NCBI GenBank assembly: GCA_964403795.1
Contig: CAYOHP010000008.1
Location: forward strand, 16,987-80,986
Origin: an uncultured bacterium
GTDB lineage: Bacteria > Muiribacteriota > UBA6191 > CAZXTJ01 > CAYOHP01
Length of the DNA: 64,000 bases
Direction of reading: 5' to 3'
In this document: positions 12,809 through 41,755 of the stretch, in pieces
Layout of the letters: each line of letters starts with the position of its first letter
Numbering within the stretch: the stretch's first letter is position 1
Program-made: the position numbers and the translations under genes
The notes under the pieces: model-generated
What the model was told of the DNA's origin: nothing
What the model saw: the letters and a program-made list of their open reading frames with translations, nothing else
The model's database searches: none

Positions 12809-14490
12809 CTACAGGCCGTGCCAGGGAGGGGGGCGACCCAGGGGGGAGAACTCCGGCCGGCGGGCCAGGTAGGTGGGGCGGTGGGCCAGGAAGGCCTTGT
12901 GCTCGGCCTTCACCGCAGCCGAGACCTTGAAGCCCCGGGGGGCCTTGTCGAGGGCGGTCCAGAGCAGCGGCATGATCCGGTGGCGGTGCCACTCCATCGG
13001 ATCCCGGTCCTGGGACCCGGGACGGGGATCAGAGGTCGCGGCCTGGTGGACGTATTCGACGAAGCGGTCGATCACCTCGTGGGCGATCACCGCCCGCTCG
13101 CCCCGGGGCAGCACCCTCCAGGCTTCCCAGAAGAGGACCCCCGGCTCCAGGAAATCGGTCTTGATCCTTCCCCCGCTCGCCTCCAGGGTCGCTGCCCGCG
13201 CCTCCCGCCGCAGCCGTCCGAGCAGCGCCGCGCCTCCATACCGGCGGACCGTCTCCTCCCCGTCCATGAGCAGGAGGTCCTGGGCCAGGGTCGGCACCAC
13301 CGTCACATGCGGGTTCGCCATCAGCCAGCGGGCGTGGTTGGTGTAGAGGAGGAGCGACTCCACGAAATCCCGGGCGCTCGACTTGCACACCTGGCCTCGA
13401 TACTCCCAGGTCGCCTCCCGGTAGACCATGGCGAGGTCCAGCGGTGCGTCGTACTCGGGCACCCGCGCCTCGTCGAGGACCTTGTCGCTCTTCACGTGGC
13501 ACTCGCCGGCGATCTGCAGCCGGTTCAGGTTCCCCTCGCCGTACCGCCCGATCTGGTCCGGCCGGTACCCGGTCTGGCGCACATGGGCCGACTGCCAGTA
13601 CCCGCAATGGATGACCTGGGCGCGCTTGCGGACCGCCCGCCCGAAGGCGAAGTTGGTCTGGAACACCTCGCGAGGCGAGCCCACCGGCCCGGTGCGCGGG
13701 TCGACCAGACCCGGAGGCGGATTGGCAGCCGGTCCCCAGCCCCGGTCCCAGATGGCGTTCTCGGACGTCAGCGTCCCCACCGCGGAAGGATGGAAGCCGC
13801 CTTCCCAGTACGCCTCGATCAGCCGACGGAAGGCGTCGTAGCGCTTGCGGGTGGCCCGGAACGGCCGGTCGTCGGGATTGGGGAAGTCCATCACGAAGCA
13901 CGAGAGCTCGGGATGGTTCAGGCGGGTGGCGATGTCGTCGACCAGGAGGCTCCCCACCATGAAGGTCTTGGCCGAGATGCTGAACTGGCAACCGCCGTGG
14001 AGCAGGGTGCCGACGAGTCCCAGGCTGGCGGGCACGTCCCAGATGTAGGCCTGCAGGAAGTCCACGAACTCGTCCAGGTGGAACCACTCGAGCGGGACCG
14101 GCTTGATCGAGAACTCGATGGTCTCGGGGTCGGTCGTGACCCTGACCTTGAGATCCCGGTGACCCGGCTCCCGGAAGCGGAACCTGAGGCCCTGGCGCCG
14201 GAATCCCCAGGGGTCCTTCTCCTTGCGCAGGTGCACGCTGCCGAACAGGCTGGTCGGGGCTCCCGCGGCCAGGTCGGCCTGGTAGCGTTCGACGATCCTC
14301 CGGGCGATCCGCTCCTGGAGCTCGAGCATGTAGGGATGCTCGAAGTAGTCGACCTCGCCGCCCTCCCGCGCCGCCAGGTGCTCCCAGAGACGCACCGTGC
14401 GCTTGGACTGGAAGGTCGGCTCCATGCCGATCCAGGCCTGGTCGAACCCCGTGGTGGTGGGTTCGTGGAAGGTCGACAGCACCGCCACCA
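12809..14490 (-). CDS. Large conserved-looking hypothetical protein (~560 aa, cytoplasmic). Function unknown.
   Basis: Long ORF with non-repetitive, balanced amino-acid composition, unlike the GC-frame noise ORFs. No family motif that I can name. Start proposed at ATG 14488-14490 (MVAVLSTFHEP). The upstream 97 codons are Lys/Arg/Gly low-complexity. Confidence 0.5.
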
Positions 14491-14762
14491 TGCGGCTGTC
14501 GTCGGCCCTGGGCCCCGCGTCGCCGTCCCGGACCGGGTGGGTCGGGGCGGCTTCCTCGAGCCTGCGCTTCCTTTCCTTCTTCCGCTTGCCGGGTCGTCCC
14601 CGCTGCTTGCCCACTCGTTTCCCTCGGACCTGGCGTGCCGGCGCCGGCGACGCTCCCGCCCCCATCGTGACCCATGGACCGGCGATCCCCAACCCCGGTC
14701 CCACCTCGAACCTTGACGGAGGCCTCGGGGGGGTGTCGAATCCGGCCCGAACGGAGGCCCCG

Positions 14763-15500
14763 GTGCCGGTCCTCGCGGTCATCCCGGCCAGGATGGAGTC
14801 CCAGCGCTACCCGGGCAAGGTCCTGGCGGACCTGCTCGGAGCGCCGATGATCCTCCACGTCCTCCGGGCCGTGCAGCAGTCCCGGCTGGTCGACAAGGTC
14901 GTGGTGGCCACCGACAGCGTCCAGGTCCAGAGCGTGGTGATCGAGAACGGCGGGGTCGCCATCATGACCCGGAGCGACCACCAGAGCGGCTCCGACCGGA
15001 TCGCCGAGGTGGCCGAGGGCCAGCCGGACTTCGACCTGATCGTGAACGTCCAGGCCGACGAGCCGATGATCAGCCCCTCGGTGGTCGACGAGCTGGTCCA
15101 GGGGTTCGGGACCGGCGAGGGTTTCGTGATGGGCACCCTGGCCCGCAAGATCTCCGATGCCTCCCAGGTGAAGGACCCCAACTCGGTGAAGGTGGTCTTC
15201 GACCGCGCCGGATCGGCCCTCTACTTCAGCCGGGCCCCCATCCCCTTCCGTCGCGGCAAGGAAGGGCCCAGCTACTACAAGCACGTCGGCGTCTACCTCT
15301 TCCGACGCGACTTCCTCCTCAAGTTCCCCACCCTGCCTCCCTCGGCCCTCGAGGCCGCCGAGAAGCTCGAGCAGCTACGGGTGCTCGAGGCCGGGTACCG
15401 GATCCGGGTCGTCAAGACCAACTACGAGAGTCACAACGTCGAGACGGCCGAGGACCTGGCGAAGGTCCGGGAGCTGATGCGGGCCAAGCGGAACCGCTAG
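14763..15500 (+). CDS. kdsB: 3-deoxy-manno-octulosonate cytidylyltransferase (CMP-Kdo synthetase).
   Basis: VLAVIPARMESQRYPGKVLADLLGAPMILHV...IVNVQADEPMI are classic KdsB motifs. Proposed GTG start at 14763. Confidence 0.85.
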   Translation: MPVLAVIPARMESQRYPGKVLADLLGAPMILHVLRAVQQSRLVDKVVVATDSVQVQSVVIENGGVAIMTRSDHQSGSDRIAEVAEGQPDFDLIVNVQADEPMISPSVVDELVQGFGTGEGFVMGTLARKISDASQVKDPNSVKVVFDRAGSALYFSRAPIPFRRGKEGPSYYKHVGVYLFRRDFLLKFPTLPPSALEAAEKLEQLRVLEAGYRIRVVKTNYESHNVETAEDLAKVRELMRAKRNR

Positions 15501-15543
15501 TCCCGGATCCAGGATCCGGGGCCCGACCCCGGGAGAGGCGAGA

Positions 15544-16425
15544 ATGAAGATGCGAACCCGCAGCGTCCGGATCGAGGGCTTCGACATCGCCATCGGGAGC
15601 GATCATCCGTTGTGCGTGATCTCCGGGCCCGACGTGCTCGAGGACCTCGACTCGGCGCTGGTGATCGCCCGCAACGTGAAGTCGCTCTGCGACCGGCACG
15701 GGTTCGGCTACGTCTTCAAGGCCAGCTACGACAAGGGCAACCGGGCCAAGTCGGGGAGCTACCGCGGTCCGATGCTCGAGAAGGGTCTCGCCCTCCTCTC
15801 CCGGGTCCGGGACGAGGTGGGATGCCCGGTGCTCACCGACGTCCACTCGGTCGAAGAGGCGGCGGTGGCCGGCGAGGTCGTCGACATCGTGCAGGTTCCC
15901 GCGTTCCTCTGCATGCAGACGGAAGTCGTGCACGCGGCGGCCCGCACCGGCAGGGTCGTGAACCTGAAGAAGGGGCAGTTCCTCGACCCCTGGGCGGCCC
16001 AGTCGCTCGCCGCCAAGGCCATGGAGACCGGCAACGACAAGATCCTGCTGACCGAGCGGGGCACCACCTTCGGCTACCAGAACCTGGTCTCCGACATCCG
16101 GTGCCTGCCGATCATGCGCAGCACCGGCTGCCCGGTGGTCTACGACCCGACCCACATCATCCGGCGGCCCGGCCTCCCGGCCAGCGCTCCCGAGGGCGGC
16201 CAGCCCGAATTCGTCCCCCATCTGACCCGGGCCGCGGTGGCGGCCGGGGTCGACGCCTTGTTCCTGGAGACCCATCCCGAGCCGCGTCTCGCCGGCTGCG
16301 ACCAGTCGAGCATGCTGCGGCTCTCCTACATGCCCGAGATCCTGGACCAGGCGGCCCGGCTCCACGCCCTGGTGCGGGAGTGGGACCTGGGGATCCGCGG
16401 CCGGGACCAGTACGGCTTCGTCTGA
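15544..16425 (+). CDS. kdsA: 3-deoxy-8-phosphooctulonate (Kdo8P) synthase, paralog 1.
   Basis: GYVFKASYDKGNRAKSGSYRGP (KxNR motif), QVPAFLCMQTE and VVYDPTHI match KdsA along its full length. Confidence 0.85.
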   Translation: MKMRTRSVRIEGFDIAIGSDHPLCVISGPDVLEDLDSALVIARNVKSLCDRHGFGYVFKASYDKGNRAKSGSYRGPMLEKGLALLSRVRDEVGCPVLTDVHSVEEAAVAGEVVDIVQVPAFLCMQTEVVHAAARTGRVVNLKKGQFLDPWAAQSLAAKAMETGNDKILLTERGTTFGYQNLVSDIRCLPIMRSTGCPVVYDPTHIIRRPGLPASAPEGGQPEFVPHLTRAAVAAGVDALFLETHPEPRLAGCDQSSMLRLSYMPEILDQAARLHALVREWDLGIRGRDQYGFV

Positions 16426-21935: not shown

Positions 21936-24224
21936 TCAACCGCCGATCAGGTAGATCCGCGCCAACCGCCCCAGGGCGATGGCCGCGATCGCGAACACCA
22001 GCATCTGGAAATAGCCGATCGCCACCTGCGCCGGGGTGAGCGCCTGGGTGGTGCGGGTGGCCGCGGTCGTCTTCCCGGATCCCCCGGGCGGCGAGGTAGC
22101 GGGGGCCGAGCGGGGACCGGTGCCGGGCGAGGGCTCGAAGTAGGTGGAGCGCTCCACCGCCAGCTGCTGGTCCTCGCCTGAGACCTGGCGGGCTCCCTCC
22201 AGGGCCAGCGCCGCCTCCTCCTCGGAGAGCATGGCGCTGCCACCGAGCTTGGGTTGGGGCAGGGCGGTGGAGGCCCGGATCCGATCGCCGCCGTAGGCCT
22301 CCTTGTTCCGGTTTCGCCCGCTGGCCGCAAGGGGGGGCATGAGCCCCGCCGCCTCCTGCGCCTTGCCGGCGATCTCGGCCGAGGTCTCGGTCCGGCTCTC
22401 GGACCGGCCACCGCCCCCCACCGCGGCCTGCTTCGAGCTCGCCTCCCGGAACGCCTCGCCCAGTGCCTTGGCGAGCGGCTCGAGCAGGCTCGCCTCGGTG
22501 GCCATCACGGCGGTCTCGGCGACCACCCGGGCGACCTGGGCGGCAGCCAGGAAGGACTCCTCGTCCCGACCTCCCACCAGTACCCCGAGCTCGGTCAGGT
22601 CGGTGTCGCCCAGGATCCAGCGCCGCAGCGCCCCGTAGGCACGGACCCCGGCGTCCCGGCTCTTCCCCAGTCGCTCGGCTTCCGGCGACCGCAACAGGGC
22701 CGTCGCCAGCGCCCGGGCCGCGGCGCGGGCCGCCGGCCCTCCCAGCTCGACCGCTCCCTCCAGGGCCCCGGCCGCCGACGCAGCCTCGGGTCCGAGCTGG
22801 CCGAGGCTGTCGGCGAGCACCACCCGGGTCTCGACGTCCTGGGACTTCTGGAGCGCCTTGCCGAGCACCCCGGCGCACCCCCTCCGGGCACTGGGATGGA
22901 CCCCCGACAGGAACCAGGCAGCCGTCCGGCACGCCACCGGATCGTCCAGTTCGAGGAGCTTCGAGAGGTAGGCGGCCGCCTGGGGATCGTCGGTCGCCCG
23001 TCGTCCCAAGGCCCGGATGGCCTGGATCCGCATGGCGCCCGGGGACGCCTTGGAGACCACGGTGGCGAGGATGGCCGAGGACTGCGGGTAGTCCATGTAG
23101 GCCAGGCAGTGGATCCCCTGGAGCAGCTCCTGGGGATTGCCGGAGGCCAGCAGGTCCTTGACCCGACGCACCGCCCGGCGGGGGTCGAGCAGCGTGGTCG
23201 CCAGGGCCACGTTCATCGCCAGCTTGGGATGGCGGGTGTCGAGCAGGGCCAGGACCTTCTCGGAATACTGCTCCGGCGGGACCGGGAGCTTGACCAGGGT
23301 CTCGACCGCGGCGGCCTGCACCACCGGGTTCGAAGTGGCCAGCGCCTCCATCGCCATCTCGAAGCCCTGGCGTTCGCCGGCGGCGGCCACGGCCTGCAGG
23401 CAGGCCACCCGCGCCAGCGGATGGTCGAGCCCGCGGAACACCGAGCCGATCCGGCGGGTGAGCTCGGCGCCCCCGAGCCGCCCCATGGTCTCCACGCTCT
23501 GGATCACGGTCCAGGGATCCCGGGACTCGAGCAGGCGGGTCAGGACCTTCTGGTAGTCGTAATCCCCGAAGCCCTCCATGGCGTAGGCGATCCAGGGCCG
23601 GACCTTTTCCTCCCGGTCGACCAGGCCGGAGAGGTACTCGAAGGCCGGACGGCTGGGAACTCCGCGGAACGCCTGGACCAGACCCGAGAAGACCGGGGTG
23701 CCGGAGCGCTTGGTGGCCAGGTCCATGGCCCGGCCGGCCGCCTCGTCGCCCCCGAAGACCGCATAGGCCGCCATGCACAGCGGTGCCATGGCCCCGGGTC
23801 CCGAGACCTCCTGGATGGCCTCCAGGCTGGCCGGGATCCGGATCCTCCCCAGCACCCGGAGCGCCGCCACCGAACGGCGTCCCCCGGCCCGGGCCTGGTT
23901 CTGGAGGGGCGGTACCAGGGTCGCCAGGCTGGAGGCCGCGGCCTGCTCGACGTCGCCGCCATCGACCTTGACGCGGGTGGCGCCGGCGTCGGCATGCCCG
24001 AGGAAGCGGGTCCAGTTGCCGGCCTCCCGGGGCGGATCGCCCCCGGCCCGGAGCAGCCCGTCCTCCAGGCGGCGGCTCCAGAACACGTCCTCGGCCAGCC
24101 GGGCGGAGTCGGCGACCTCCCCGGACTCGGCGGCCTCCAGCAGGTCGAGGGCCACCGCACTGTCGACGGTGATGGGCTGGCGCTCCAGCCTCCGGAGCAG
24201 GAAGGCCTTCGCCATGGTCCCCTG
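21936..24224 (-). CDS. HEAT/PBS-lyase-type repeat protein with a C-terminal TM anchor.
   Basis: Many degenerate alpha-helical repeats of the form D/NPxVRxxAaxaLgxig. The C-terminal hydrophobic segment reads IGYFQMLVFAIAAIALG. ATG proposed at 24222-24224; the ORF track's TTG at 24263 is also possible. Confidence 0.55.
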   Translation of the reverse strand, partial: QGTMAKAFLLRRLERQPITVDSAVALDLLEAAESGEVADSARLAEDVFWSRRLEDGLLRAGGDPPREAGNWTRFLGHADAGATRVKVDGGDVEQAAASSLATLVPPLQNQARAGGRRSVAALRVLGRIRIPASLEAIQEVSGPGAMAPLCMAAYAVFGGDEAAGRAMDLATKRSGTPVFSGLVQAFRGVPSRPAFEYLSGLVDREEKVRPWIAYAMEGFGDYDYQKVLTRLLESRDPWTVIQSVETMGRLGGAELTRRIGSVFRGLDHPLARVACLQAVAAAGERQGFEMAMEALATSNPVVQAAAVETLVKLPVPPEQYSEKVLALLDTRHPKLAMNVALATTLLDPRRAVRRVKDLLASGNPQELLQGIHCLAYMDYPQSSAILATVVSKASPGAMRIQAIRALGRRATDDPQAAAYLSKLLELDDPVACRTAAWFLSGVHPSARRGCAGVLGKALQKSQDVETRVVLADSLGQLGPEAASAAGALEGAVELGGPAARAAARALATALLRSPEAERLGKSRDAGVRAYGALRRWILGDTDLTELGVLVGGRDEESFLAAAQVARVVAETAVMATEASLLEPLAKALGEAFREASSKQAAVGGGGRSESRTETSAEIAGKAQEAAGLMPPLAASGRNRNKEAYGGDRIRASTALPQPKLGGSAMLSEEEAALALEGARQVSGEDQQLAVERSTYFEPSPGTGPRSAPATSPPGGSGKTTAATRTTQALTPAQVAIGYFQMLVFAIAAIALGRLARIYLIGG

Positions 24225-24287
24225 GGAGCCGTAGGACCAGAGGATCTCGTCGAGCTGGCGCAACCCCTTGCCTCCCCTGGCGTTCGC

Positions 24288-24728
24288 CTACTTGAAGAGC
24301 GACTTGAGGAGCGACAGGCCCTTGCCGCCCGCCTTCTCCTTCGCCTGTTCCTTCTTGACCTTGTCCTCTGCCTTGTTACCGAGCCAGTTGCTCAGGAGGC
24401 CGCCCCCGATGGACTTGGCCTGGAGCCCGCCGAGCTCCTTGTCCCGGTGGTGGCGTCGGGTCGCCTCGAGCTTGTGGACTCCCGGTTCGGAACCCTTGGC
24501 GAGGCTGGCGAAGCCTCCGAAGGGTCTGCCCACGGCCAGGCTCCGGGAGAGCCGGACCCGCTCCCCGTCGCTCCACACCATGAGCTTCGATCCCTTCGAG
24601 ACCACCATGCCGGCCTCGGGCAACGGGACGAGCTCGTCGGCCGCCCGGACCGCGTGGCCGAGGAGACCGGCAGAGAGCGCCAGCACCAGGATCCTCCCGG
24701 TCCAGCCGGGGACTCCGATGACGACCAT
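24288..24728 (-). CDS. Small secreted hypothetical protein with a Lys-rich C-terminus.
   Basis: Signal peptide (RILVLALSAGLLGHAVRA). 146 aa. It lies between the FecR-domain gene and the HEAT-repeat gene on the same strand. Confidence 0.45.
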   Translation of the reverse strand: MVVIGVPGWTGRILVLALSAGLLGHAVRAADELVPLPEAGMVVSKGSKLMVWSDGERVRLSRSLAVGRPFGGFASLAKGSEPGVHKLEATRRHHRDKELGGLQAKSIGGGLLSNWLGNKAEDKVKKEQAKEKAGGKGLSLLKSLFK

Positions 24729-24740
24729 CAGGCCACCTCC

Positions 24741-25907
24741 TCAGGGATTGTCGATGGACAGGACCTTCACGTCACCCTCGAGCACGTCGACGGTGGGCAT
24801 GCGCCCGGCGCCGGCCATCTCGAGGGTGGCCATGGTGACCCCGCCCCTGCGGGTGAAGTCGACCACCTTCAGGTCGTCCCCGTTGGTCCGCGCCATGAAC
24901 ACCGCCACGTCGTGCCGGGGACCGTGTCGCAGCGGCTGGAAGGTGGGATCGGCCCGGTGGAAGGTCATCTTCCCCTTGCGCAGCCGGCCCATCAGGGCGT
25001 TGCCCATGCGATAGAAGCTGAACTCGGTCCCGGACTCGAAGCGCAGCCAGCCGGTGTGCCGGAGGTGGAGGATGGCGTAGCCGGTGCCCACGGTCAGCAC
25101 CAGCGGGTTCTGCCAGTCGCGCCCCGGGGCATCCCAGTCGATCTCCTTGTTCCACCAGGTGGCGTCGACCAGGGCCCCGTCCAGCAGGACCTGCCCCGCG
25201 GTCGCCTCGGCGACGTGGAACTCCCGGTTGTACTTGGCGTTGACGTGGTCCTGGTTCTCGTAGAGGAACTGCTGGGCGGCCCGGGCCATCATGGCGTAGC
25301 GGAAGACCCGGATGGCATCCACCGCCAGCTCTTGGTTGGAGGTCACCAGTCCGAGCAGGGCCCCGCCGTAGGCCAGGCCGTTCAGGATGCCCCGGGTCAC
25401 CCCCAGGAAGGTCCGCTTCTTGCGATGGTCGTACTCGACCGCGAACTCGGTGCCCCGCACCCCGGCCACGACGGTGGGAGCCCGGACGTTGAAGGGGCTC
25501 GCCTCGTGCTCCGCGGGGGGCCGCCGGGTGACCTGGCAGACGACCTTGCCCAGGCTCTCGGAGAACATCCCGACCCAGCTCGTCTGGTCCTGGTTCTCGG
25601 GGATGTCGGGGATCTCGAGCATGGTGTTCTCGGAGACCGCGACCGAATCCTGGCCGCCTTCCTTGTTGTAGAACACCACCTCGCAACTCGACCCGGGACC
25701 GGTCCGCACCCGGTCCCCCATCTGCACCGGCACCTCGCCGGCCAGCGGTCCCTTCCACCGGTTGAAGGCCGCGGCGTAGATCTCGACTTTGCCCCTGGGC
25801 TTGGTGATCCGCCCCCGCGCCGTGCCCTGGGCGATCGCCTGGGGAACCGCAGCCACCGTCAACCAGACCGCAGCGAGCGCCAACCCGACGATGCCAGAGG
25901 TCTTCAC
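24741..25907 (-). CDS. Secreted FecR-domain protein, the partner of the CHASE2 cyclase.
   Basis: Signal peptide (GIVGLALAAVWLTVAAVPQAIAQG), then a FecR-like region (GRITKPRGKVEIYAAAFNRWKGPLAGEVPVQMGDRVRTGPGSSCEVVF). The GTG start at 25905-25907 overlaps the cyclase gene stop (GTGA). The 5' 350 codons of ORF 24741..26957 are noise. Confidence 0.6.
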   Translation of the reverse strand: MKTSGIVGLALAAVWLTVAAVPQAIAQGTARGRITKPRGKVEIYAAAFNRWKGPLAGEVPVQMGDRVRTGPGSSCEVVFYNKEGGQDSVAVSENTMLEIPDIPENQDQTSWVGMFSESLGKVVCQVTRRPPAEHEASPFNVRAPTVVAGVRGTEFAVEYDHRKKRTFLGVTRGILNGLAYGGALLGLVTSNQELAVDAIRVFRYAMMARAAQQFLYENQDHVNAKYNREFHVAEATAGQVLLDGALVDATWWNKEIDWDAPGRDWQNPLVLTVGTGYAILHLRHTGWLRFESGTEFSFYRMGNALMGRLRKGKMTFHRADPTFQPLRHGPRHDVAVFMARTNGDDLKVVDFTRRGGVTMATLEMAGAGRMPTVDVLEGDVKVLSIDNP

Positions 25908-28846
25908 TTGTGCTCCATGGTCCACACGCCGTCCCAGTCCCCCCGGGGAGGATGTTCCCTGAGCAGCGTAATCCGCTCCAGGTAGCGCATGGAAGGCGCA
26001 TCGCCGGGCCGGACCTCGAGCACCCGCCCGAATCCCGCCTCGGCCTCGTCCCAGGCCTGGGCCCGGTAGGCGGAGAGGGCCGCCTCCCAGGGCGAGAGCA
26101 GGCCGTCGTGGTTCCCCTCGCCCTTCTCGGCCAGCACCTCGAAGACGCTCGCCGGGATCGTCTTGCCCTTGACCCGGACCCGGTCGAGCTCCCGCATCAC
26201 CAGCTCGGCACCGGCGACCCGGGCGGTGTTCTCCCCGATCATCAGGTAGGTCCCGTACTCCTTGTTCAGCGCCTCGAGGCGGGCCGCCAGGTTCACCGCG
26301 TCCCCCAGCACCGTGTAGTTCTTCTTCCGCTCGGTGCCGACGTTCCCGACCACCACCGAGCCGGTGTTGATGCCGATCCTGGTCTTGACCTCGGGAAGGT
26401 CGCGGGCCCTCCACACCTTGCGGAGCGCCTCCTCGCGGGCCTTGAGCTCCAGGGCCGCCAGGCAGCAGCGCACCGCGTGGTCCGGCTGGTGGCGGGGGGC
26501 GTTGAAGACGCAGACGATGGCGTCCCCGATGAACTTGTCGACCCAGCCGCCGTAGCGCATCAGCACATCCGACATGGCGGTCAGGTACTCGTTCATGAAC
26601 ACCACAAGCTCGGGCGGGGTCATCTTCTCGGAGAATCCGGAGAAGCCCTCGATGTCCGAGAAGTAGCAGGAGACGTCGCGCTGGGTCCCCCCCAGGGCCA
26701 CCGCCGCCGGGCTCGCCTCCAGCTCCGAGACGATGTCGGGATCGAGGTAGTGCTGGAACATGGCCCGGATCTCCCGGCGCTTCCGCTCCACGGTGGCGTA
26801 GTTCCAGGAGAGCAGCGCCAGGCAGGTCCCGGCGAGCGCGATCACGGGCAGACCGACGTGGACCCATCGCCCTGCCACCAGCAGCCGGTACCCGATCTCG
26901 TAGCCGGCGGCGACCAGGGCCAGGACCAGCCCGAGGTGGCGCACCCTCTGGAACCACAGGGCGGTGGCGACGCAGAGCACCACCAGCCAGGGGAGCAACG
27001 AGAGCTGCCCGGAAGCCCGCTCCCGGAAATCGGGCGCTCCCATCTCGAGGAGGCCGGTGGGCGCCTCCCGGAGGGAGCCGGAGATCAAGGTATGGACCGC
27101 GTGCCCATGCACCTCGACCCCCGGGGTCCGGTTCCGGCCGCGGCGGGCGGTGGCGGAGAAGAAGCCCGCCTGGTCGAAGGGGGTTCGATGGAAGTCCTGG
27201 GACAGCTCGGTGACGTCCCCTACCAGCACGATGGCGTCCTGGAAGATGGTGGCCGTCTCCACCTCGAGGTGGCCGCGGTGCCCGGTGCGGGGATCCTCGA
27301 CCAGCACGGTCCTGCGACCCGCGGCGGTGTCGGGCAGCGGCCCGGGCCGAGGCGCGTAGGGGGGTGCCGGGAGGGTACGGTCCACCGCCAGCAGCGCCAG
27401 GGGCCCTTCCCCTCCTTCCACCCGGATCGCGGGAGGCTCGCGACGGGACCCGGCCCGCCGCGGTGCCCGGGCCGCCACCACGATCTCGTCGGAAAGCACC
27501 GGGACGGGATCGCCCCCCGCCTCGACCAGGACGTCCTCGCTGGCCAGGGGCGGGGTCTGGAACCCGCCGTCCGGTCCGGTGGCCACCTCGACCCGCTCCC
27601 GGTAGACCAGGTCGGCCAGGTAGCGGTCGCCCTCGAAGACCACGGCGCGATCGGCCAGGGCGACGTCGAGCCGACCGCGGATCACGCGGCTGGGCGACGG
27701 GAGCTCCACCGACACCTCACCGGCCGTGGCGGCCACATTGCTGCGGGTCGCCACCCCGAAGGCCCTCGGCCCCAGGGTGCGTCCCACCCACAACGCGTAG
27801 GGACCTGGCGACAACCCGGAGAGGACGACCTTGCCGCGTCCCCGCGCCGAGGCCCACACGCCGTCCCCCTCGGGGAGCGCGAGCACGTCGAGGTCTTCGT
27901 CGGCCGGGGCCAGGACCACCGTCAGCGAGTGGGGACCGGGCGGAGCCAGCACCGCGCGGGTCGGGTGGATCCGGCCGGACTCGAGCAGGAGTTCCTGGCC
28001 GCCCGAGCCGGCCTCCTCGTTGAGCAGGTCGGCCACCGAGACCGTGGGGATGGTCCCGCCCGGTCCCAGGAACGAGATCGGGTAGCGGCCGAAGCGGTCG
28101 ACCTCGAGCTCCCGCCCCCAGGGCAAGGTCACCCGCCCGGTGGCGAAGGCTGCTTCCGCCGGCGACCCGGGAGGAGGTGCCGAGGGTCCCCGCAGGACCA
28201 GGTCGGCGAGCTGGAGATCGAGCGAGGCGAGGGTCTGCATCCCGGGCGTCATCAGCCAGGAGGAGCCGTAACGGAGGCAGCCGTCCCGATCCTGGAAGGT
28301 GTTGACGTGGCCCACCCGGGCGACCTCGGAGAGCTCGGGCAGCGGCAGCACCAGGTCGATCCTGGAACTGGTCCCGAACGACCCGCCCACCACGCCCCGC
28401 TCTCGCTCCGCCGCCAACACCGTGTCGCGCCGGAGCGAAAGGACCCGGATCAACTCGTCGGTCCCGGGCCGCGGCATGTCCATCACCACGTCGAACCCGA
28501 TCGCCTTGGCGCCACGCTCCCGGAGCCTCTCCACGATCCGGGCATAGACTTCGCGGCTCCACGAGCCGGGCGCGAAGCCCCATCGTTTCTGGACCAGGCG
28601 ATTGGCCTCGTCATCGATCCCGAGGACGACCACGCGGGGATCGCCGGGCCGGCGGGGGATCACCCCCCGACGTTGGATCCAGGAACGTTCGAGGGCCAAC
28701 TCGAGGTCGAGGAACGGCGCCGGGAAGACCACCGCTGCCAGCCAGGTCGCGAACGCGACCAGGGTCCCCGCGACCACGGCGATGGCGGCCCGCTCCTCGC
28801 GGGGGGCGGAAAGCGACGCGGCCTCTCCGCCGGACGAGACGCTCAT
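25904..28846 (-). CDS. CHASE2-sensor adenylate/guanylate cyclase (class III nucleotidyl cyclase), with a large insertion in the periplasmic part.
   Basis: N-terminal TM plus CHASE2 hallmark (PRVVVLGIDDEANRL...REVYARIVERLRERGAKAIGFDVVMD). About 450 aa of extra periplasmic sequence follows, then TM helices. The C-terminal CYCc domain reads SCYFSDIEGFSGFSEKM...FIGDAIVCVF...IGINTGSVVVGNVGTERKKNYTVLGDAVNLAARLEA. ATG at 28844-28846. Confidence 0.8.
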   Translation of the reverse strand: MSVSSGGEAASLSAPREERAAIAVVAGTLVAFATWLAAVVFPAPFLDLELALERSWIQRRGVIPRRPGDPRVVVLGIDDEANRLVQKRWGFAPGSWSREVYARIVERLRERGAKAIGFDVVMDMPRPGTDELIRVLSLRRDTVLAAERERGVVGGSFGTSSRIDLVLPLPELSEVARVGHVNTFQDRDGCLRYGSSWLMTPGMQTLASLDLQLADLVLRGPSAPPPGSPAEAAFATGRVTLPWGRELEVDRFGRYPISFLGPGGTIPTVSVADLLNEEAGSGGQELLLESGRIHPTRAVLAPPGPHSLTVVLAPADEDLDVLALPEGDGVWASARGRGKVVLSGLSPGPYALWVGRTLGPRAFGVATRSNVAATAGEVSVELPSPSRVIRGRLDVALADRAVVFEGDRYLADLVYRERVEVATGPDGGFQTPPLASEDVLVEAGGDPVPVLSDEIVVAARAPRRAGSRREPPAIRVEGGEGPLALLAVDRTLPAPPYAPRPGPLPDTAAGRRTVLVEDPRTGHRGHLEVETATIFQDAIVLVGDVTELSQDFHRTPFDQAGFFSATARRGRNRTPGVEVHGHAVHTLISGSLREAPTGLLEMGAPDFRERASGQLSLLPWLVVLCVATALWFQRVRHLGLVLALVAAGYEIGYRLLVAGRWVHVGLPVIALAGTCLALLSWNYATVERKRREIRAMFQHYLDPDIVSELEASPAAVALGGTQRDVSCYFSDIEGFSGFSEKMTPPELVVFMNEYLTAMSDVLMRYGGWVDKFIGDAIVCVFNAPRHQPDHAVRCCLAALELKAREEALRKVWRARDLPEVKTRIGINTGSVVVGNVGTERKKNYTVLGDAVNLAARLEALNKEYGTYLMIGENTARVAGAELVMRELDRVRVKGKTIPASVFEVLAEKGEGNHDGLLSPWEAALSAYRAQAWDEAEAGFGRVLEVRPGDAPSMRYLERITLLREHPPRGDWDGVWTMEHK

Positions 28847-28882: not shown

Positions 28883-29821
28883 ATGTCGGCTCGGGTCGCC
28901 CGTTTCCTCGCCCTCTCCGTGGCAGTCCCCCTGGCGCTCCTGCCGTTCCGGATCCAGGAGTTCCTGGCCCGCCTGGCCGCCGCCGTCCTGCGCCTCTCCC
29001 TGCCCCGACGGATCGCCATCGCCCGCCGCAACCTGGCGATCGCCTTCCCCGAGCTCGAGCCCTCCGAGCGGGAGCGACTCCTCGACCGCCACTTCCGGCA
29101 CCTGGGCCGTCTGGTGGTCGACACCCTTCAGCAGCCGGCCTTCCGGTTCCGGAGCCTGCTCTGGCAGAAGGTCCATCCGGTGGGCTGGGGCCATCTCGAG
29201 GACGCGCTCCGGAAGGGTCCGAGCGCCATCCTGCTCTGCGCCCACCTCGGCTCATGGGAGATCGGCGCGGCGGTGGCGACCCTGCCGGGGGTGCGCCTGC
29301 TCTCGGTCTACAAGCCGTCCCGGCGGGGCTTCGCCGACGCCTTCGTGGCGGCCCTGCGCGAGGGCCTCCCCCAGGTGCTGCTCCCCAAGCAGGACGCGCT
29401 GCGCCCCCTGGTCCAGGGGGCCCGCTCCGGCGCCCTGCTCGGCCTGATCGCCGACCAGGGCGGTCTCGAGGAGTACACCTTCTTCGGGCGGCCGGCCCGG
29501 TTCCCGGAGGGTCCCGGCCACTTCGCAGCCAGGTTCGGCAGCCTCCCGGTTCCGTGCTTCTCGATCCGACGCGACGACGGCAGCTACGACTGCCATTGCC
29601 TGCCGCCGCTCTCCCTCCCCGAAGGCCGCGGCCGGGAGGCCAAGCGCCGGGTCATGACCGAGTACGTGGCCTTGCTCGAGACCTGGATCCGCCGCCACCC
29701 CGAGCAGTACTACTGGGTCCACGACATCTGGCGGTCGTTCAAGGACGACGCCCCCCCTCCCGGATCCGGAGCCGAAGGCCCCGAAGGCAGCCCGGACCCG
29801 GGCACCGGTACCGCGGCATGA
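28883..29821 (+). CDS. Lipid A biosynthesis late acyltransferase (LpxL/LpxM/HtrB family).
   Basis: N-terminal TM, then the LpxL-family pattern (RRNLAIAFPELEPSERERLLDRHFRHLGRLVVDTL...ILLCAHLGSWEIG...GLIADQ). It sits next to waaA, as in many Gram-negatives. Confidence 0.7.
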   Translation: MSARVARFLALSVAVPLALLPFRIQEFLARLAAAVLRLSLPRRIAIARRNLAIAFPELEPSERERLLDRHFRHLGRLVVDTLQQPAFRFRSLLWQKVHPVGWGHLEDALRKGPSAILLCAHLGSWEIGAAVATLPGVRLLSVYKPSRRGFADAFVAALREGLPQVLLPKQDALRPLVQGARSGALLGLIADQGGLEEYTFFGRPARFPEGPGHFAARFGSLPVPCFSIRRDDGSYDCHCLPPLSLPEGRGREAKRRVMTEYVALLETWIRRHPEQYYWVHDIWRSFKDDAPPPGSGAEGPEGSPDPGTGTAA

Positions 29822-31875
29822 AACTCCCCGGCTTCGTCCCGGCCGGCCGCGCCGACACCCGCGCCCTGCTCCGGGCCGAGGAGGCCGAGCGGCTGGTGGC
29901 GAGCGGGATCCTGGTCCCGGAGCGCCTGGCCACCCGGGTCAGGGGCCGCTTCCAGGGTCGGGGCACGACCGCGCTGCTGGATCTCGGCGGGATCCCGGCG
30001 GTGCTGCGCCGGTACCGCCACGGTGGCCTGCTGCGTCTCTTCTCCCGCGACCTCTACCTGGATCGTCGCGGCGTCGCCGAGGCCGCCGCCCTGGAGGAGC
30101 TCCGCGCCCGGGGGGCGCCCTGCCCTGTGCCCCTGGCGGTGCTGGAGGAGGACGCCGGCTTCGGCGGCCTGATCCGCCAGTCGCTGGCGACCCTCGCCAT
30201 CCCCGGGGCCCGGGCGGCTCCCGAGGCCCTCGCCGGCCTCCCGGTCCGGGAACGCCGACGCCGCCTCGCCCGGCTGGCGGAAGCCGTCCGTGCCCTCCAT
30301 GACGCGGGCGGGGACCACGCCGACCTGAACGCCCGGAACCTGGTCCTCGACGGCTCTGGCCGGGGCTGGGTCGTCGACCTCGACCGGGCCGTGGTCCATC
30401 CCGGCCCGCTCCCGGCCCACCGACGCGCCGCCAACCTCCGACGCCTGGCCCGCAGCTGGCGCAAGCTCGATCCCGAGGGCCGCGTCGTCTCGCCGCGGGA
30501 CGCCCTCGCCTTCGCCCGGGCCTACGCGGGGGGAAGGCTGGGAGGACTGCCCCGGGGAGCTCCCGGGGCCCCGCCACGCCCGCGGTTCCCGGCCGGCCTC
30601 GGCTACGACCTGGCGTTGCTGCTGCTCTCGCCGCTGGTGCTCGCCACCCTGGCATGGCTGGTCCTGGTGAGGGGCCGCTTCGCCGGCTCCTGGCGCCAGC
30701 GCCTCGGACTCTGCGCCCCGCCCCGGCCCCCGGGTCCCCGCCCCATCCTGGTCCATGCCGCCAGCGTGGGGGAGGCCACCTCGGCCGTCGCCCTGGTCCG
30801 GGAGCTGCGCCGCGCCTTCCCCGGGGTGCCGGTGGTGATCTCCACGTTGTCCGACGCGGGGAACGAGGCGGCCCGTCGTCTGGCTCTCGGCGATGCCGTG
30901 ACCTTCCTGCCGGCCGACCTCCCCGGGATCCCCGGCAGGTTCCTCGACCGGCTCGCCCCCCGCCTGGTCGTGATGCTCGAGACCGAGATCTGGTGCGGGT
31001 TCTACCGGGCCCTGGAGGAGCGCGGCATCCCGCTCGCCACGGCCGGTGCCCGGATCGCCCCCAACCGGGTCGGGCGCTACCGGTCGCTCGGCTTCCTCTA
31101 CCGGCGCCTGATGCGGATCCCGGACTACTTCGGGATGCAATCCCGGGACGACGCGGAACGCGTCATGGCGATGGGCGCGCCCCGGGGGCGGGTCCATGTA
31201 CCCGGCGACCTGAAGTACGACTCGGTGCTCGGCAACCTCTCGGATCCCCGCCGGGACCGCTTCCTCGCCCTGCGCCGCGGCGAGCGACCGTTCCTGGTGG
31301 CCGGGAGCGTCCATCCCGGGGAAGCCGAGGCCGTGCTCGATGCCTTCGGCTCGCTCCGGGCGCGCCGGCCCGGGGTCCGCCTGGTGATCGCCCCCCGCCA
31401 TCTCGACAAGGTCCCGGCGGTGCTGGCCGCGGCCAGGAGCCGCGGGCTCGATGCCCGGCTGCGCTCCGAGGCCGGGGCCCTGGCTTCGGCAGCGGTGATC
31501 GTCCTCGACACCATGGGAGAGCTCGCCTTCGCCTACGAGGGCTGCCGGGTGGCCTTCGTGGGAGGGAGCCTGGTGCCGGTGGGCGGCCACAGCCCGTTGG
31601 AGCCGGCGGTCTTCCGGGTGCCCGTCCTGTTCGGACCGCAGGCCTACAACTTCGCCACCACCAACCGCGCCCTGGTGGAGGCCGGGGGAGCCCGCGAGGT
31701 CGGGGACGGCATGGCCCTGGCCGCCGCCTGGGAGGAACTGCTGGCCGAGCCGCGCCGGGCCGGTGCCATGGGCGAGGCCGCCCATGGAGTGCTCGCATCC
31801 TGGGGGGGCGCATGCCGTACCATCGCGGTGGATCTCGCCACGCGATGGCCCGGCCTGTCCGGGACCTCGTCCTAG
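29818..31875 (+). CDS. waaA: Fusion protein. The N-terminal part is a Kdo kinase (KdkA / LPS-kinase fold). The C-terminal part is a 3-deoxy-D-manno-octulosonic-acid (Kdo) transferase WaaA (KdtA).
   Basis: Residues ~1-240 have the kinase-like motifs (RYRHGGLLRLFSRDLY...HDAGGDHADLNARNLVLDGSGRGWVVDLDRA). A TM follows. Residues ~260-685 carry the WaaA signature (ILVHAASVGEATSAVALVRELRRAFPGVPVVISTLSDAG...ETEIWCGFY...). The ATG overlaps the lpxL-like stop (ATGA). Confidence 0.7.
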   Translation: MKLPGFVPAGRADTRALLRAEEAERLVASGILVPERLATRVRGRFQGRGTTALLDLGGIPAVLRRYRHGGLLRLFSRDLYLDRRGVAEAAALEELRARGAPCPVPLAVLEEDAGFGGLIRQSLATLAIPGARAAPEALAGLPVRERRRRLARLAEAVRALHDAGGDHADLNARNLVLDGSGRGWVVDLDRAVVHPGPLPAHRRAANLRRLARSWRKLDPEGRVVSPRDALAFARAYAGGRLGGLPRGAPGAPPRPRFPAGLGYDLALLLLSPLVLATLAWLVLVRGRFAGSWRQRLGLCAPPRPPGPRPILVHAASVGEATSAVALVRELRRAFPGVPVVISTLSDAGNEAARRLALGDAVTFLPADLPGIPGRFLDRLAPRLVVMLETEIWCGFYRALEERGIPLATAGARIAPNRVGRYRSLGFLYRRLMRIPDYFGMQSRDDAERVMAMGAPRGRVHVPGDLKYDSVLGNLSDPRRDRFLALRRGERPFLVAGSVHPGEAEAVLDAFGSLRARRPGVRLVIAPRHLDKVPAVLAAARSRGLDARLRSEAGALASAAVIVLDTMGELAFAYEGCRVAFVGGSLVPVGGHSPLEPAVFRVPVLFGPQAYNFATTNRALVEAGGAREVGDGMALAAAWEELLAEPRRAGAMGEAAHGVLASWGGACRTIAVDLATRWPGLSGTSS

Positions 31876-41132: not shown

Positions 41133-41348
41133 CAGAGATCCTCCCCACGCATGGCGTGACCCGCTCATTCTAGCGCCGATCCCCGGGGCTTTTGTACTTC
41201 CTCGTGCCCCGAGGGCGCTCCTGAAGTCGATCCTAGAGGATGGAGCCTTCCCGAAGCGATCCCTCCTCCGGCGCCACGGCCACGGTTTGGATCCGCGCCC
41301 GGAGCGGGCTACCTTGGAGAAGTCCAGCCCCGAGCGGAAGGATCCCCG

Positions 41349-41681
41349 ATGCAGACCGTGCGGAAGACCACCGGCGCGAGGAAGCGGACCGCCAGGCTGG
41401 TCCTGGCGATCGCGATCGCCACCATGCCGCTGACCACCGGCTGCCAGATCATGTCCATGCTGGGTCCCCTGATGTCGGTCTTCAGCGGACTCTCGGGCCT
41501 CTTCAAGGGTGCCGGCGGCGGCGCGGCGGCGGCCGCGGCCCCCCAGACCAACGCCACCCCGCCGGCCGCCCAGAACGCCTCGCTGTTGAAGCTCACGGCG
41601 ACCGACCCGAGCGACCCCAGCAAGGTCGGCGGCAAAGGTACCGGGACCGAACCCGGCAAGGACACGCTGGCCGGCAAGTAG
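41349..41681 (+). CDS. Small hypothetical lipoprotein, Ala/Gly-rich.
   Basis: Lipobox LTTGCQ after a basic N-terminus. 110 aa. Low-complexity, so the coding call is tentative. Confidence 0.35.
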   Translation: MQTVRKTTGARKRTARLVLAIAIATMPLTTGCQIMSMLGPLMSVFSGLSGLFKGAGGGAAAAAAPQTNATPPAAQNASLLKLTATDPSDPSKVGGKGTGTEPGKDTLAGK

Positions 41682-41755
41682 GGGTCTCCCCCCGAGCCCA
41701 CCAGCCTCCCGCCCAGGGCGTCCCCCCGCACCGGAGTGGTAGCGTTCCCGACCTC

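What the first reader, a model, noticed from the sequence alone, without database searches (positions are those of the whole stretch)
29818..31875. Single polypeptide fusing a Kdo-kinase-like domain to the Kdo transferase WaaA
The N-terminal 240 aa have the KdkA / LPS-kinase pattern (RYRHGGLLRLFSRDLY, HADLNARNLVLD, VVDLDRA). They run without a stop into a TM helix and a complete WaaA. In the organisms where Kdo phosphorylation is known (Haemophilus, Vibrio, Bordetella), kdkA is a separate gene. A kinase-transferase fusion would imply obligatory coupling of Kdo transfer and Kdo phosphorylation, and a mono-Kdo phosphorylated inner core.
Basis: partly seen in the sequence, partly recalled or inferred. 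Interest (0 to 1): 0.55.

Follow-up and report, generated by a model that had tools for sequence, protein, structure and literature searches.

The report
Fused Kdo kinase–Kdo transferase enzyme
One gene really does encode a Kdo kinase joined through a hydrophobic helix to the Kdo transferase WaaA, two consecutive steps of endotoxin inner-core synthesis; the same two enzymes are already fused in the opposite order in many cultured marine bacteria, so this is a rare domain-order variant, not a new kind of enzyme.

Summary
Window 29818-31875 (+) is one uninterrupted 685-aa ORF with four parts: a KdkA-like kinase (aa 1-245), a Pro/Gly linker, one hydrophobic helix (aa 258-284) and a complete WaaA. 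It is not a frameshift artefact. Independent assemblies encode the identical protein, and eight homologues at 47-61% identity plus the divergent P0027 keep the same architecture, with kinase and WaaA catalytic residues invariant in the nine closest proteins. An LpxL-like acyltransferase gene overlaps its start (ATGA) and a GT4 gene follows.

The claimed rarity does not hold. WaaA-KdkA fusions in the reverse order are common in Idiomarina, Pseudidiomarina, Rheinheimera and Hydrogenophaga. Rheinheimera pacifica, a species that carries one, has a published LOS with a single Kdo 4-phosphate. The kinase-first order is rare: 3 of the 150 best cluster representatives from a search of 1.84 billion. 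Unfused kdkA→waaA neighbours separated by one in-frame stop codon also exist, which suggests a simple origin.

Most likely function: transfer one Kdo to lipid IVA, phosphorylate it, then hand the product to LpxL. This is inferred, not tested.

The more interesting consequence concerns topology. A cytoplasmic domain upstream of WaaA's "TM" helix implies that the helix re-enters the membrane instead of spanning it.

Verdict: new variant of a known kind, moderate interest.

The parts
28883..29821 (+). LpxL-like lipid A secondary acyltransferase gene (312 aa). Its stop codon overlaps the fusion gene's start codon.
   Evidence: PF03279 in the gene calls. NCBIfam lauroyl acyltransferase models at E 1.7e-29, all below their cutoffs. 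ATGA overlap seen. The same gene sits upstream of the fusion in L040, L041, L042 and L044.
29818..31875 (+). Complete fusion ORF (685 aa plus stop): KdkA-like kinase, linker, hydrophobic helix, WaaA.
   Evidence: AlphaFold2 model with mean pLDDT 83.7 and pTM 0.71.
29818..30552 (+). Kdo-kinase-like domain (aa 1-245), with a protein-kinase-like fold. Motifs: GRG 46-48, R64, HGG 68-70, E88, HxDLNxxN 167-174, DLD 187-189, NLxRLxRSxxK 206-216.
   Evidence: PF06293 and NF002475. These residues are shared with KdkAs that pass the equivalog cutoff. The domain-only model has pLDDT 93.3 and matches PRPK/Bud32 and RIO2 kinases.
30553..30588 (+). Short Pro/Gly-rich linker (aa 246-257). It follows the junction motif Y236-x-G-G-x-L-x-G-x-P-x-G247 (invariant positions; YAGGRLGGLPRG in the window protein).
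   Evidence: Invariant columns Y236, G238, G239, L241, G243, P245 and G247 in A1 and A4. Lower pLDDT in this stretch.
30589..30669 (+). The only hydrophobic segment between the two domains (aa 258-284, ...YDLALLLLSPLVLATLAWLVLV). It is uniformly hydrophobic, has a central Ser-Pro, and corresponds to the N-terminal membrane helix of free-standing WaaA.
   Evidence: Kyte-Doolittle scan. Mean hydrophobicity 0.82 and hydrophobic moment 0.04. Predicted helix 258-283. It is the least conserved stretch in sequence but is hydrophobic with a central Pro in all ten kinase-first proteins, including P0027.
30670..31872 (+). WaaA (GT30, GT-B fold) catalytic region, aa 285-685. Conserved residues: SVGE (E319), ETE (388-390), GDLK (K466), APRH (R527), GGHSPLEP (S592, E595).
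   Evidence: PF04413 and NF004388. phmmer hit to Aquifex WaaA 2xci at E 1.5e-24 and Foldseek hit to 2xci at E 1.5e-21. Roles of the residues are taken from PMC6286764.
31890..33050 (+). GT4-family glycosyltransferase (386 aa) immediately downstream; candidate core glycosyltransferase.
   Evidence: Pfam GT4/GT1 families. A GT4 gene also lies directly downstream of the fusion in L040 and L042. NCBIfam gives only generic GT4 hits.
14397..15500 (+). kdsB (CMP-Kdo synthetase), which supplies the WaaA donor substrate. The HMM match begins at codon 125 of this ORF, so the real start is probably near 14769.
   Evidence: NF003952 at 298.7 bits (cutoff 193) and TIGR00466 at 206 bits (cutoff 155).
15544..16425 (+). 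kdsA (Kdo-8-phosphate synthase).
   Evidence: NF003543 at 335.5 bits (cutoff 242).

Best explanation
The gene encodes a real bifunctional inner-membrane enzyme of lipopolysaccharide inner-core synthesis. The C-terminal WaaA (GT30) domain transfers Kdo from CMP-Kdo to lipid IVA on the cytoplasmic face of the inner membrane. The N-terminal KdkA-like kinase, tethered about 15 residues upstream of WaaA's membrane helix, then phosphorylates that Kdo with ATP. By analogy with KdkA the target is O-4, the position where a bifunctional WaaA would add a second Kdo. The expected product is therefore Kdo(P)-lipid IVA with a single Kdo. The translationally coupled upstream LpxL-like acyltransferase probably uses this phosphorylated product, and downstream glycosyltransferases extend the core. 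The fusion most likely arose by loss of the stop codon between adjacent kdkA and waaA genes. Both catalytic domains need cytoplasmic substrates, so the single hydrophobic segment between them must leave and re-enter the cytoplasmic leaflet (a re-entrant, monotopic anchor) and cannot span the membrane. Shown here: the architecture, its conservation, intact catalytic motifs, the folds and the operon layout. Inferred: substrate, phosphorylation site, number of Kdo residues, channelling and topology.
For: The ORF is uninterrupted and both domains are significant.

Nine proteins at 47-100% identity, plus the divergent P0027, share the architecture. In the nine closest proteins these residues are invariant: kinase H167, D169, N171, N174, D187 and D189, and WaaA E319, E388/E390, K466, R527 and E595.

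The kinase residues match those of KdkAs that pass the NCBIfam equivalog cutoff (Haliea at 231 bits, Novilysobacter at 272 bits). KdkA is the only LPS-kinase model hit; no WaaP model was reported at E<=0.01.

The folds agree: the kinase model (pLDDT 93) matches PRPK/Bud32/RIO2, and the WaaA part matches Aquifex WaaA.

The operon lpxL-[kdkA-waaA]-GT4 is conserved, with an ATGA overlap. kdsB and kdsA lie in the same window.

The known pathway runs monofunctional WaaA, then KdkA, then LpxL, which requires Kdo-P, in V. cholerae, H. influenzae and B. pertussis (PMC3178793).

The independent reverse-order fusions pass the KdkA equivalog cutoff. Rheinheimera pacifica, a species that carries one (P0347), makes Glc-(1->5)-Kdo4P-(2->6)-lipid A with a single Kdo (PMC13608308).

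A plausible pre-fusion state exists. In L089, kdkA ends at 2433 and waaA starts at 2437, in the same frame.

On topology: there is one hydrophobic segment per protein, uniformly hydrophobic, with one to three central prolines and a positively charged C-terminal flank. The N-terminus has no signal-peptide-like hydrophobic stretch.
Against: No biochemistry exists for any member of either fusion type.

Both domains score below the NCBIfam equivalog cutoffs (kinase 106 against 142; WaaA 288 against 438), so exact specificity is not guaranteed.

PF06293 also includes heptose kinases (WaaP, WaaY). Three GT9 (heptosyltransferase-family) genes lie 10 kb downstream, so a heptose or other core sugar target is not excluded.

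The number of Kdo residues that WaaA adds cannot be read from sequence.

AlphaFold2 draws aa 258-283 as one continuous helix and not as a helix-break-helix.

The source organism could not be identified, so no LPS chemistry is available.
Confidence: 0.72

Rival explanations
1. The kinase domain is an LPS/sugar kinase of the PF06293 family with a different target from Kdo O-4. Candidates are a core heptose (WaaP/WaaY-like), another hydroxyl of Kdo, or the outer Kdo of a Kdo2 product. In that case the fusion co-localises two LPS enzymes that do not act on consecutive steps.
For: The kinase scores 106 bits, below the KdkA equivalog cutoff of 142, as do its closest free-standing relatives (Gemmatimonadota P0205 at 116 bits, P0203 at 105 bits). 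In the tree it lies outside the clade that holds the two Haliea/Novilysobacter KdkAs that pass the equivalog cutoff. GT9 heptosyltransferase-family genes lie at about 41.2-45.9 kb in the window.
Against: KdkA is the only LPS-kinase model hit; no WaaP or WaaY model was reported at E<=0.01. The family-specific residues R64, HGG and NLxRLxRSxxK are shared with KdkAs that pass the equivalog cutoff. kdkA-like genes lie within 4 kb of waaA in 21 of 74 unrelated metagenome loci. Two independent fusions of this kinase family to WaaA point to a direct functional link.
Confidence: 0.17
2. The fusion is an assembly, sequencing or gene-calling artefact, and two separate genes (kdkA and waaA) exist in the organism.
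For: At 72-75% GC, long stop-free frames are common. Unfused kdkA→waaA neighbours separated by a single stop codon do exist elsewhere (L089).
Against: Contigs from separate sequencing runs and an NCBI record encode the identical protein. Nine further proteins, eight at 47-61% identity plus the divergent P0027, from different samples keep one frame through the junction. The junction motif (Y236, G238, G239, L241, G243, P245, G247) is invariant. There is no Met between aa 1 and 386, and no alternative start with a ribosome-binding site before the helix.
Confidence: 0.02
3. One domain is catalytically dead and serves only as a scaffold or regulator, for example a pseudokinase that anchors or regulates WaaA.
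For: Nothing direct. The only hint is the sub-threshold equivalog scores.
Against: All catalytic-loop and metal-binding residues of the kinase, and the catalytic and CMP-binding residues of WaaA, are invariant across the nine closest homologues (47-100% identity to the window protein). The only deviation is Ser592 in place of Aquifex Asn273, a residue that contacts the phosphate through its backbone N (PMC6286764). Ser also occurs at this position in free-standing WaaAs such as P0034.
Confidence: 0.04

Closest known systems
Separate monofunctional WaaA and KdkA of Haemophilus influenzae, Vibrio cholerae and Bordetella pertussis
   Same: The same two enzyme families act consecutively: Kdo transfer to lipid IVA, then Kdo phosphorylation, followed by an LpxL that needs Kdo-P (PMC3178793; Brabetz et al. 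2000, as cited). The catalytic motifs are shared.
   Different: There they are two genes and two polypeptides; here they are one. The kinase and WaaA here are divergent and fall below the NCBIfam equivalog cutoffs.
WaaA-KdkA fusion proteins (transferase first) of Idiomarina, Pseudidiomarina, Rheinheimera, a Chromatiaceae bacterium and Hydrogenophaga. In RefSeq/UniProt they are annotated either as 'lipid IV(A) Kdo transferase' or as 'Kdo kinase'.
   Same: The same two domains sit in one polypeptide of about 660-710 aa. The expected product, a single Kdo 4-phosphate, is chemically documented in Rheinheimera pacifica LOS (PMC13608308).
   Different: The domain order is opposite, so WaaA's hydrophobic helix stays at the N-terminus and raises no topological problem. 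Their kinase domains group with proteobacterial free-standing KdkAs, apart from the clade formed by the window's kinase domain and its eight closest homologues, which points to an independent fusion event. They pass the KdkA equivalog cutoff; the window protein does not. I found no paper that discusses either fusion.
Unfused adjacent kdkA→waaA gene pairs (metagenome loci L089 and L053)
   Same: Same gene order and strand. In L089 the two genes are in the same reading frame, 3 nt apart.
   Different: A stop codon separates the two proteins. They are of proteobacterial type and are not close relatives.
Other WaaA fusions: WaaA-LpxK, DUF374-WaaA and tandem WaaA-WaaA
   Same: WaaA is fused to a neighbouring lipid A/LPS pathway enzyme. 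DUF374-WaaA and WaaA-WaaA likewise place a domain upstream of a WaaA hydrophobic helix.
   Different: The partner domains differ.
Re-entrant membrane helix of monotopic phosphoglycosyl transferases (PglC type)
   Same: A single hydrophobic helix with a central Ser-Pro or Pro break, with both ends on the cytoplasmic side. This comparison rests on my own knowledge plus the abstract of PMC6133551. The window protein has LLLLSPLVL.
   Different: There is no homology. The re-entrant geometry here is inferred from domain logic and has not been observed.

Membership tests
KdkA (Kdo kinase; Pfam PF06293, NCBIfam NF002475) | Match to PF06293 above the Pfam gathering score | tested here: met
   69.8 bits against a cutoff of 21.3, aa 40-236.
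KdkA (Kdo kinase; Pfam PF06293, NCBIfam NF002475) | Score above the NCBIfam KdkA equivalog cutoff (142 bits) | tested here: not met
   106.2 bits. Relatives score 93 (P0009) and 85 (P0027). Bona fide KdkAs score 231-275.
KdkA (Kdo kinase; Pfam PF06293, NCBIfam NF002475) | Catalytic loop HxDLxxxN, metal-binding DxD, and the family motifs R-x3-x-GG and NLxRLxRSxxK | tested here: met
   H167, D169, N174, D187, D189, R64, G69, G70, R209, L210, R212 and S213 are invariant across 38 sequences, including KdkAs that pass the equivalog cutoff.
KdkA (Kdo kinase; Pfam PF06293, NCBIfam NF002475) | Minimal protein-kinase-like fold | tested here: met
   Model with pLDDT 93.3. Foldseek top hits are PRPK/Bud32 (E 3.8e-09, TM 0.60-0.69) and RIO2.
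KdkA (Kdo kinase; Pfam PF06293, NCBIfam NF002475) | ATP-dependent phosphorylation of Kdo O-4 of Kdo-lipid IVA | not testable with these tools
   Needs an enzyme assay or LPS mass spectrometry.
WaaA / KdtA (CAZy GT30) | PF04413 N-domain above the gathering score, with full-length coverage by WaaA models | tested here: met
   160.4 bits against 23.9. NF004388 covers model positions 7-413 of 425.
WaaA / KdtA (CAZy GT30) | Score above an NCBIfam WaaA equivalog cutoff | tested here: not met
   The best score is 288 bits against a cutoff of 438, so this is a divergent lineage.
WaaA / KdtA (CAZy GT30) | GT-B fold most similar to solved WaaA, with the catalytic and CMP-binding residues E31, E98, K162, R212 and E276 (Aquifex numbering) | tested here: met
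   2xci is the top hit by both sequence and fold. The equivalents E319, E388/E390, K466, R527 and E595 are invariant. N273 is replaced by S592, but that residue makes a backbone contact.
WaaA / KdtA (CAZy GT30) | Number of Kdo residues transferred (mono- or bifunctional) | not testable with these tools
   I know of no sequence signature for this. It is inferred to be one Kdo from the association with KdkA.
WaaA-KdkA fusion proteins of the Idiomarina/Rheinheimera type | Both domains in one polypeptide | tested here: met
WaaA-KdkA fusion proteins of the Idiomarina/Rheinheimera type | WaaA N-terminal and kinase C-terminal; common descent of the fusion | tested here: not met
   The order is reversed. 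In the NJ tree the kinase domains of P0001-P0009 form a clade separate from the transferase-first kinase domains.

The most novel reading that the evidence does not exclude
Natural fusions that place a cytoplasmic domain directly upstream of WaaA's hydrophobic helix (KdkA-WaaA here, and also DUF374-WaaA and tandem WaaA-WaaA) suggest that this helix is a proline-kinked re-entrant monotopic anchor in WaaA generally. To my knowledge it is annotated as a single-pass transmembrane signal anchor. In the fused enzyme, the kinase tethered beside it would capture Kdo-lipid IVA before release. Phosphorylation at O-4 would then fix the Kdo count at one by kinetic channelling, and no intrinsic monofunctionality of the transferase would be needed.
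Probability: 0.4. Interest if true: 0.5.

Novelty: new variant of a known kind. Interest (0 to 1): 0.36.

Why it matters
A fusion of consecutive enzymes is strong genomic evidence that they act together. Here it predicts a single phosphorylated Kdo in the inner core of an uncultured, high-GC diderm lineage whose LPS is unknown.

Together with the much commoner reverse-order fusions, it offers a single-polypeptide system for studying how Kdo number is set and whether Kdo-lipid IVA is channelled from WaaA to KdkA and on to LpxL.

The kinase-first order also works as a natural topology reporter. It argues that WaaA's N-terminal hydrophobic helix has both ends on the cytoplasmic side. That bears on how this essential enzyme, a target of drug discovery, sits in the membrane.

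There is a practical point too. Public annotations name these fusion proteins as only one of the two enzymes, so kdkA or waaA will look absent in pathway reconstructions.

Tried and rejected
- The genome-contig scan with the full protein returned only free-standing WaaAs and one free-standing KdkA (Gemmatimonadota L036).
- Taxonomic assignment failed. Every window protein looked up is a nameless singleton cluster. Rfam found no rRNA or other RNA. The neighbours of the Gemmatimonadota KdkA are only 28-30% identical to the window's LpxL and GT4. I leave the taxon open.
- The first metagenome scan, with the single kinase sequence, found nothing. The second, alignment-based scan found 74 KdkA-like loci, none of them fused.
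- Model coordinates are not exposed, so I could not examine inter-domain contacts or helix geometry.
- The primary WaaA papers (PMC3341020, PMC2755949) are not held.
- Five literature searches for any description of a KdkA/WaaA fusion found none.
- I first considered a heptose-less core, because only a GT4 gene follows the fusion. I withdrew this after finding three GT9-family genes 10 kb downstream.
- I considered an amphipathic in-plane helix and rejected it, because the hydrophobic moment is near zero.
- I considered three independent fusion events, because P0027 sits apart in the NJ tree. I reduced this to at least two, because P0027 shares both the domain order and the overlapping upstream lpxL.
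Full report
OBSERVATION

The window is 69-76% G+C. Coordinates 29818-31875 (+) translate into 685 codons and a stop, with no interruption.

Pfam places PF06293 (LPS kinase, Kdo/WaaP family) at aa 40-236 (E 2.8e-19) and PF04413 (Kdo transferase N-domain) at aa 291-468 (E 4.3e-47). NCBIfam's best models are KdkA NF002475 for aa 39-222 (E 1.3e-30, 106 bits) and WaaA NF004388 for aa 263-669 (E 7.8e-86, 288 bits). Both are highly significant, but both fall below the strict equivalog cutoffs of 142 and 438 bits.

The start ATG overlaps the stop of the upstream gene (ATGA at 29818-29821).

IS THE FUSION REAL?

Yes, on four grounds:
- The identical protein is encoded on contigs assembled from different sequencing runs and in an NCBI record.
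- A word-indexed search of 5.8 billion proteins found eight further proteins of 680-690 aa at 47-61% identity. All carry PF06293+PF04413 and align end to end.
- Between residues 1 and 386 there is no Met codon, and no GTG/TTG with a ribosome-binding site upstream of the helix, so WaaA cannot be made separately.
- The junction itself is conserved (invariant Y236, G238, G239, L241, G243, P245 and G247; YAGGRLGGLPRG in the window protein).

ANATOMY

1. Kinase, aa 1-245. Residues G47-R48, R64, H68-G69-G70, E88, H161, H167-x-D169-L-N171-x-x-N174, D187-L-D189 and N206-L-x-R-L-x-R-S-x-x-K216 are invariant in the nine closest fusion proteins. Nearly all of them are also found in free-standing proteins that pass the KdkA equivalog cutoff (Haliea at 231 bits, Novilysobacter at 272 bits). 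A domain-only AlphaFold2 model is confident (pLDDT 93.3). Its best PDB matches are the minimal kinases PRPK/Bud32 and RIO2.
2. A 12-residue Pro/Gly linker.
3. One hydrophobic segment, aa 258-284. It is the only such segment between the domains in every kinase-first protein. It is uniformly hydrophobic (mean hydrophobicity 0.7-0.9 and hydrophobic moment at most about 0.2 in nine of the ten; P0008 is weaker at 0.51 and 0.41), carries one to three central prolines (LLLLSPLVL here), and has a positively charged C-terminal flank. It corresponds to the N-terminal helix of ordinary WaaA.
4. WaaA, aa 285-685. The best sequence and fold matches are to Aquifex aeolicus WaaA 2xci. The equivalents of E31, E98, K162, R212 and E276 are invariant (E319, E388/E390, K466, R527, E595). 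Asn273 is replaced by Ser592, but that residue contacts the CMP phosphate through its backbone amide (PMC6286764).

CONTEXT

An LpxL-like acyltransferase (PF03279) lies immediately upstream in the window and in L040, L041, L042 and the divergent L044. A GT4 glycosyltransferase lies directly downstream in the window, L040 and L042; in L041 a GT4 gene lies about 3 kb away on the opposite strand.

The window also holds kdsB and kdsA, which supply CMP-Kdo, and tolB. A cluster of three GT9 genes and one GT2 gene lies at about 41.2-45.9 kb. It contains only one WaaA and one Kdo-kinase-like sequence.

HOW COMMON IS THE FUSION?

An exhaustive HMMER search of 1.84 billion cluster representatives with the fusion profile put three kinase-first representatives among the best 150 (P0001, P0009, P0027). 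The same list held 16 proteins of 660-707 aa with WaaA at the N-terminus and a second match to the kinase part. Pfam and my own domain HMMs confirm the latter as WaaA-KdkA fusions in the opposite order.

A follow-up search with one of them returned 117 further clusters in its top list. All are transferase-first. They come from cultured Idiomarina (including I. loihiensis), Pseudidiomarina, Rheinheimera and a Chromatiaceae bacterium. A further cluster includes a Hydrogenophaga protein.

The two tested (P0031, P0032) pass the KdkA equivalog cutoff, and P0031 also passes a WaaA cutoff. In public databases these proteins are named either 'Kdo transferase' or 'Kdo kinase'.

A rough NJ tree of kinase domains separates the kinase-first clade from the transferase-first clade. 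The latter sits with proteobacterial free-standing KdkAs. There were therefore at least two independent fusion events.

None of the 74 KdkA-like loci recovered from JGI metagenomes is fused, but 21 have waaA within 4 kb. In L089, kdkA ends at 2433 and waaA begins at 2437 in the same frame. Loss of that one stop codon would create exactly the architecture seen here.

MECHANISM

In V. cholerae, H. influenzae and B. pertussis the established order is as follows. A monofunctional WaaA adds one Kdo, KdkA phosphorylates it, and LpxL then requires the phosphorylated Kdo (PMC3178793; Brabetz et al. 2000, as cited).

The operon here encodes those three steps in two overlapping genes. I therefore infer this sequence: transfer of one Kdo to lipid IVA, phosphorylation by the tethered kinase, secondary acylation, then core extension.

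Direct chemical support exists only for the reverse-order family. Rheinheimera pacifica, a species that carries such a fusion (P0347), has the LOS Gal-Gal-Glc-(1->5)-Kdo4P-(2->6)-GlcN4P-GlcN1P, with one Kdo 4-phosphate (PMC13608308). That paper does not discuss the genes.

TOPOLOGY

KdkA needs ATP, and WaaA needs CMP-Kdo and lipid IVA at the cytoplasmic face. The N-terminus has no signal-like hydrophobic stretch. With a single hydrophobic segment between two cytoplasmic domains, that segment cannot span the bilayer.

It is not amphipathic, so the most likely geometry is a proline-kinked re-entrant anchor. DUF374-WaaA and tandem WaaA-WaaA fusions impose the same constraint.

This is inference. 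AlphaFold2 draws one continuous helix, and I could not inspect the coordinates.

COMPARISON, NOVELTY AND VERDICT

The protein works like KdkA plus monofunctional WaaA. It meets the family, fold and catalytic-residue criteria for both but fails both NCBIfam equivalog cutoffs, so it is a divergent lineage.

It is not a member of the Idiomarina/Rheinheimera fusion family, because the order is opposite and the kinase clade is separate.

I found no paper that describes either fusion. Even so, the domain pair in one protein is plainly already in public databases, in cultured organisms.

The finding is therefore a rare, independently evolved domain-order variant of an existing but uncharacterised kind of bifunctional enzyme. 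The source is an unidentified, sparsely sampled high-GC diderm; all proteins looked up are singletons at 90% identity.

Interest is moderate. The biochemical implication is expected, not surprising. The topological implication for WaaA is the most useful new lead.

Noticed in passing
L040 7591-8004, L041 4194-4574, L042 7038-7466 (all +): In three relatives, a small ORF of 126-142 aa with no Pfam match sits between the lpxL-like gene and the fusion gene, overlapping both. The L040 and L042 copies look alike (e.g. AxGFxGGA, FDP). The window lacks it; there the LpxL-like protein is 312 aa instead of 289-291 and abuts the fusion directly.
   Followed up: partly
Proteins P0052, P0082, P0018, P0025 (WaaA-LpxK); P0130, P0157 (DUF374-WaaA); P0028 (WaaA-WaaA tandem): WaaA is fused to several other partners: the lipid A 4'-kinase LpxK at its C-terminus, a DUF374 (PF04028) domain at its N-terminus, or a second WaaA. 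The N-terminal fusions again leave a single hydrophobic segment between two domains.
   Followed up: partly
L089 1444-3747 (+); L053 3884-5868 (+): Unfused kdkA directly followed by waaA. In L089 the two genes are in the same reading frame with only a stop codon and 3 nt between them, which is a plausible precursor of the kinase-first fusion. L089 also has a GT9 heptosyltransferase-like gene divergently upstream (564-1778, -).
   Followed up: partly
window about 41240-45922 (+): A second LPS-core-like cluster: three GT9 (heptosyltransferase-family) genes (about 41.2-42.8, 43.1-44.8 and 44.9-45.9 kb) and a GT2 gene (42661-43587). A PF00275 (MurA/EPSP-synthase family) gene lies at 39846-41168 (-); a PF00275 gene also lies near the fusion in L041.
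   Followed up: partly
window 14397-16425 (+): A kdsB-kdsA pair. The kdsB ORF as listed has 124 extra N-terminal codons that overlap a high-GC3 ORF on the other strand (12809-14782), so its true start is probably near 14769.
   Followed up: no
window 21936-28846 (-): Divergent from the lpxL/fusion operon is a four-gene string: a CHASE2-adenylate/guanylate cyclase (980 aa), a FecR-domain protein (388 aa), a 146-aa protein with no family, and a HEAT-repeat protein (775 aa). A HEAT_2 protein (L041) and a faint-FecR protein (L042) also lie directly upstream of the lpxL-like gene in those relatives.
   Followed up: no
window aa 592 of the fusion (nt 31591-31593): The WaaA motif is GGHSPLEP, with Ser where Aquifex WaaA has Asn273 (HNLLEP). 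The Ser is invariant in the nine closest fusion proteins and also occurs in some free-standing WaaAs (P0034, and the L089 WaaA).
   Followed up: partly
Public annotations of P0297-P0305 (Idiomarina) against P0243-P0290 (Pseudidiomarina): Orthologous WaaA-KdkA fusion proteins are named 'Kdo kinase' in some genomes and 'lipid IV(A) Kdo transferase' in others, and never as bifunctional. Pathway reconstructions would therefore miss one of the two steps.
   Followed up: no
window 55472-56863 (-): The C-terminal 75 aa give a weak match (31 bits, far below the 630-bit cutoff) to an NCBIfam 'DS2_3 anti-phage protein' model. This is probably only a shared small domain.
   Followed up: no
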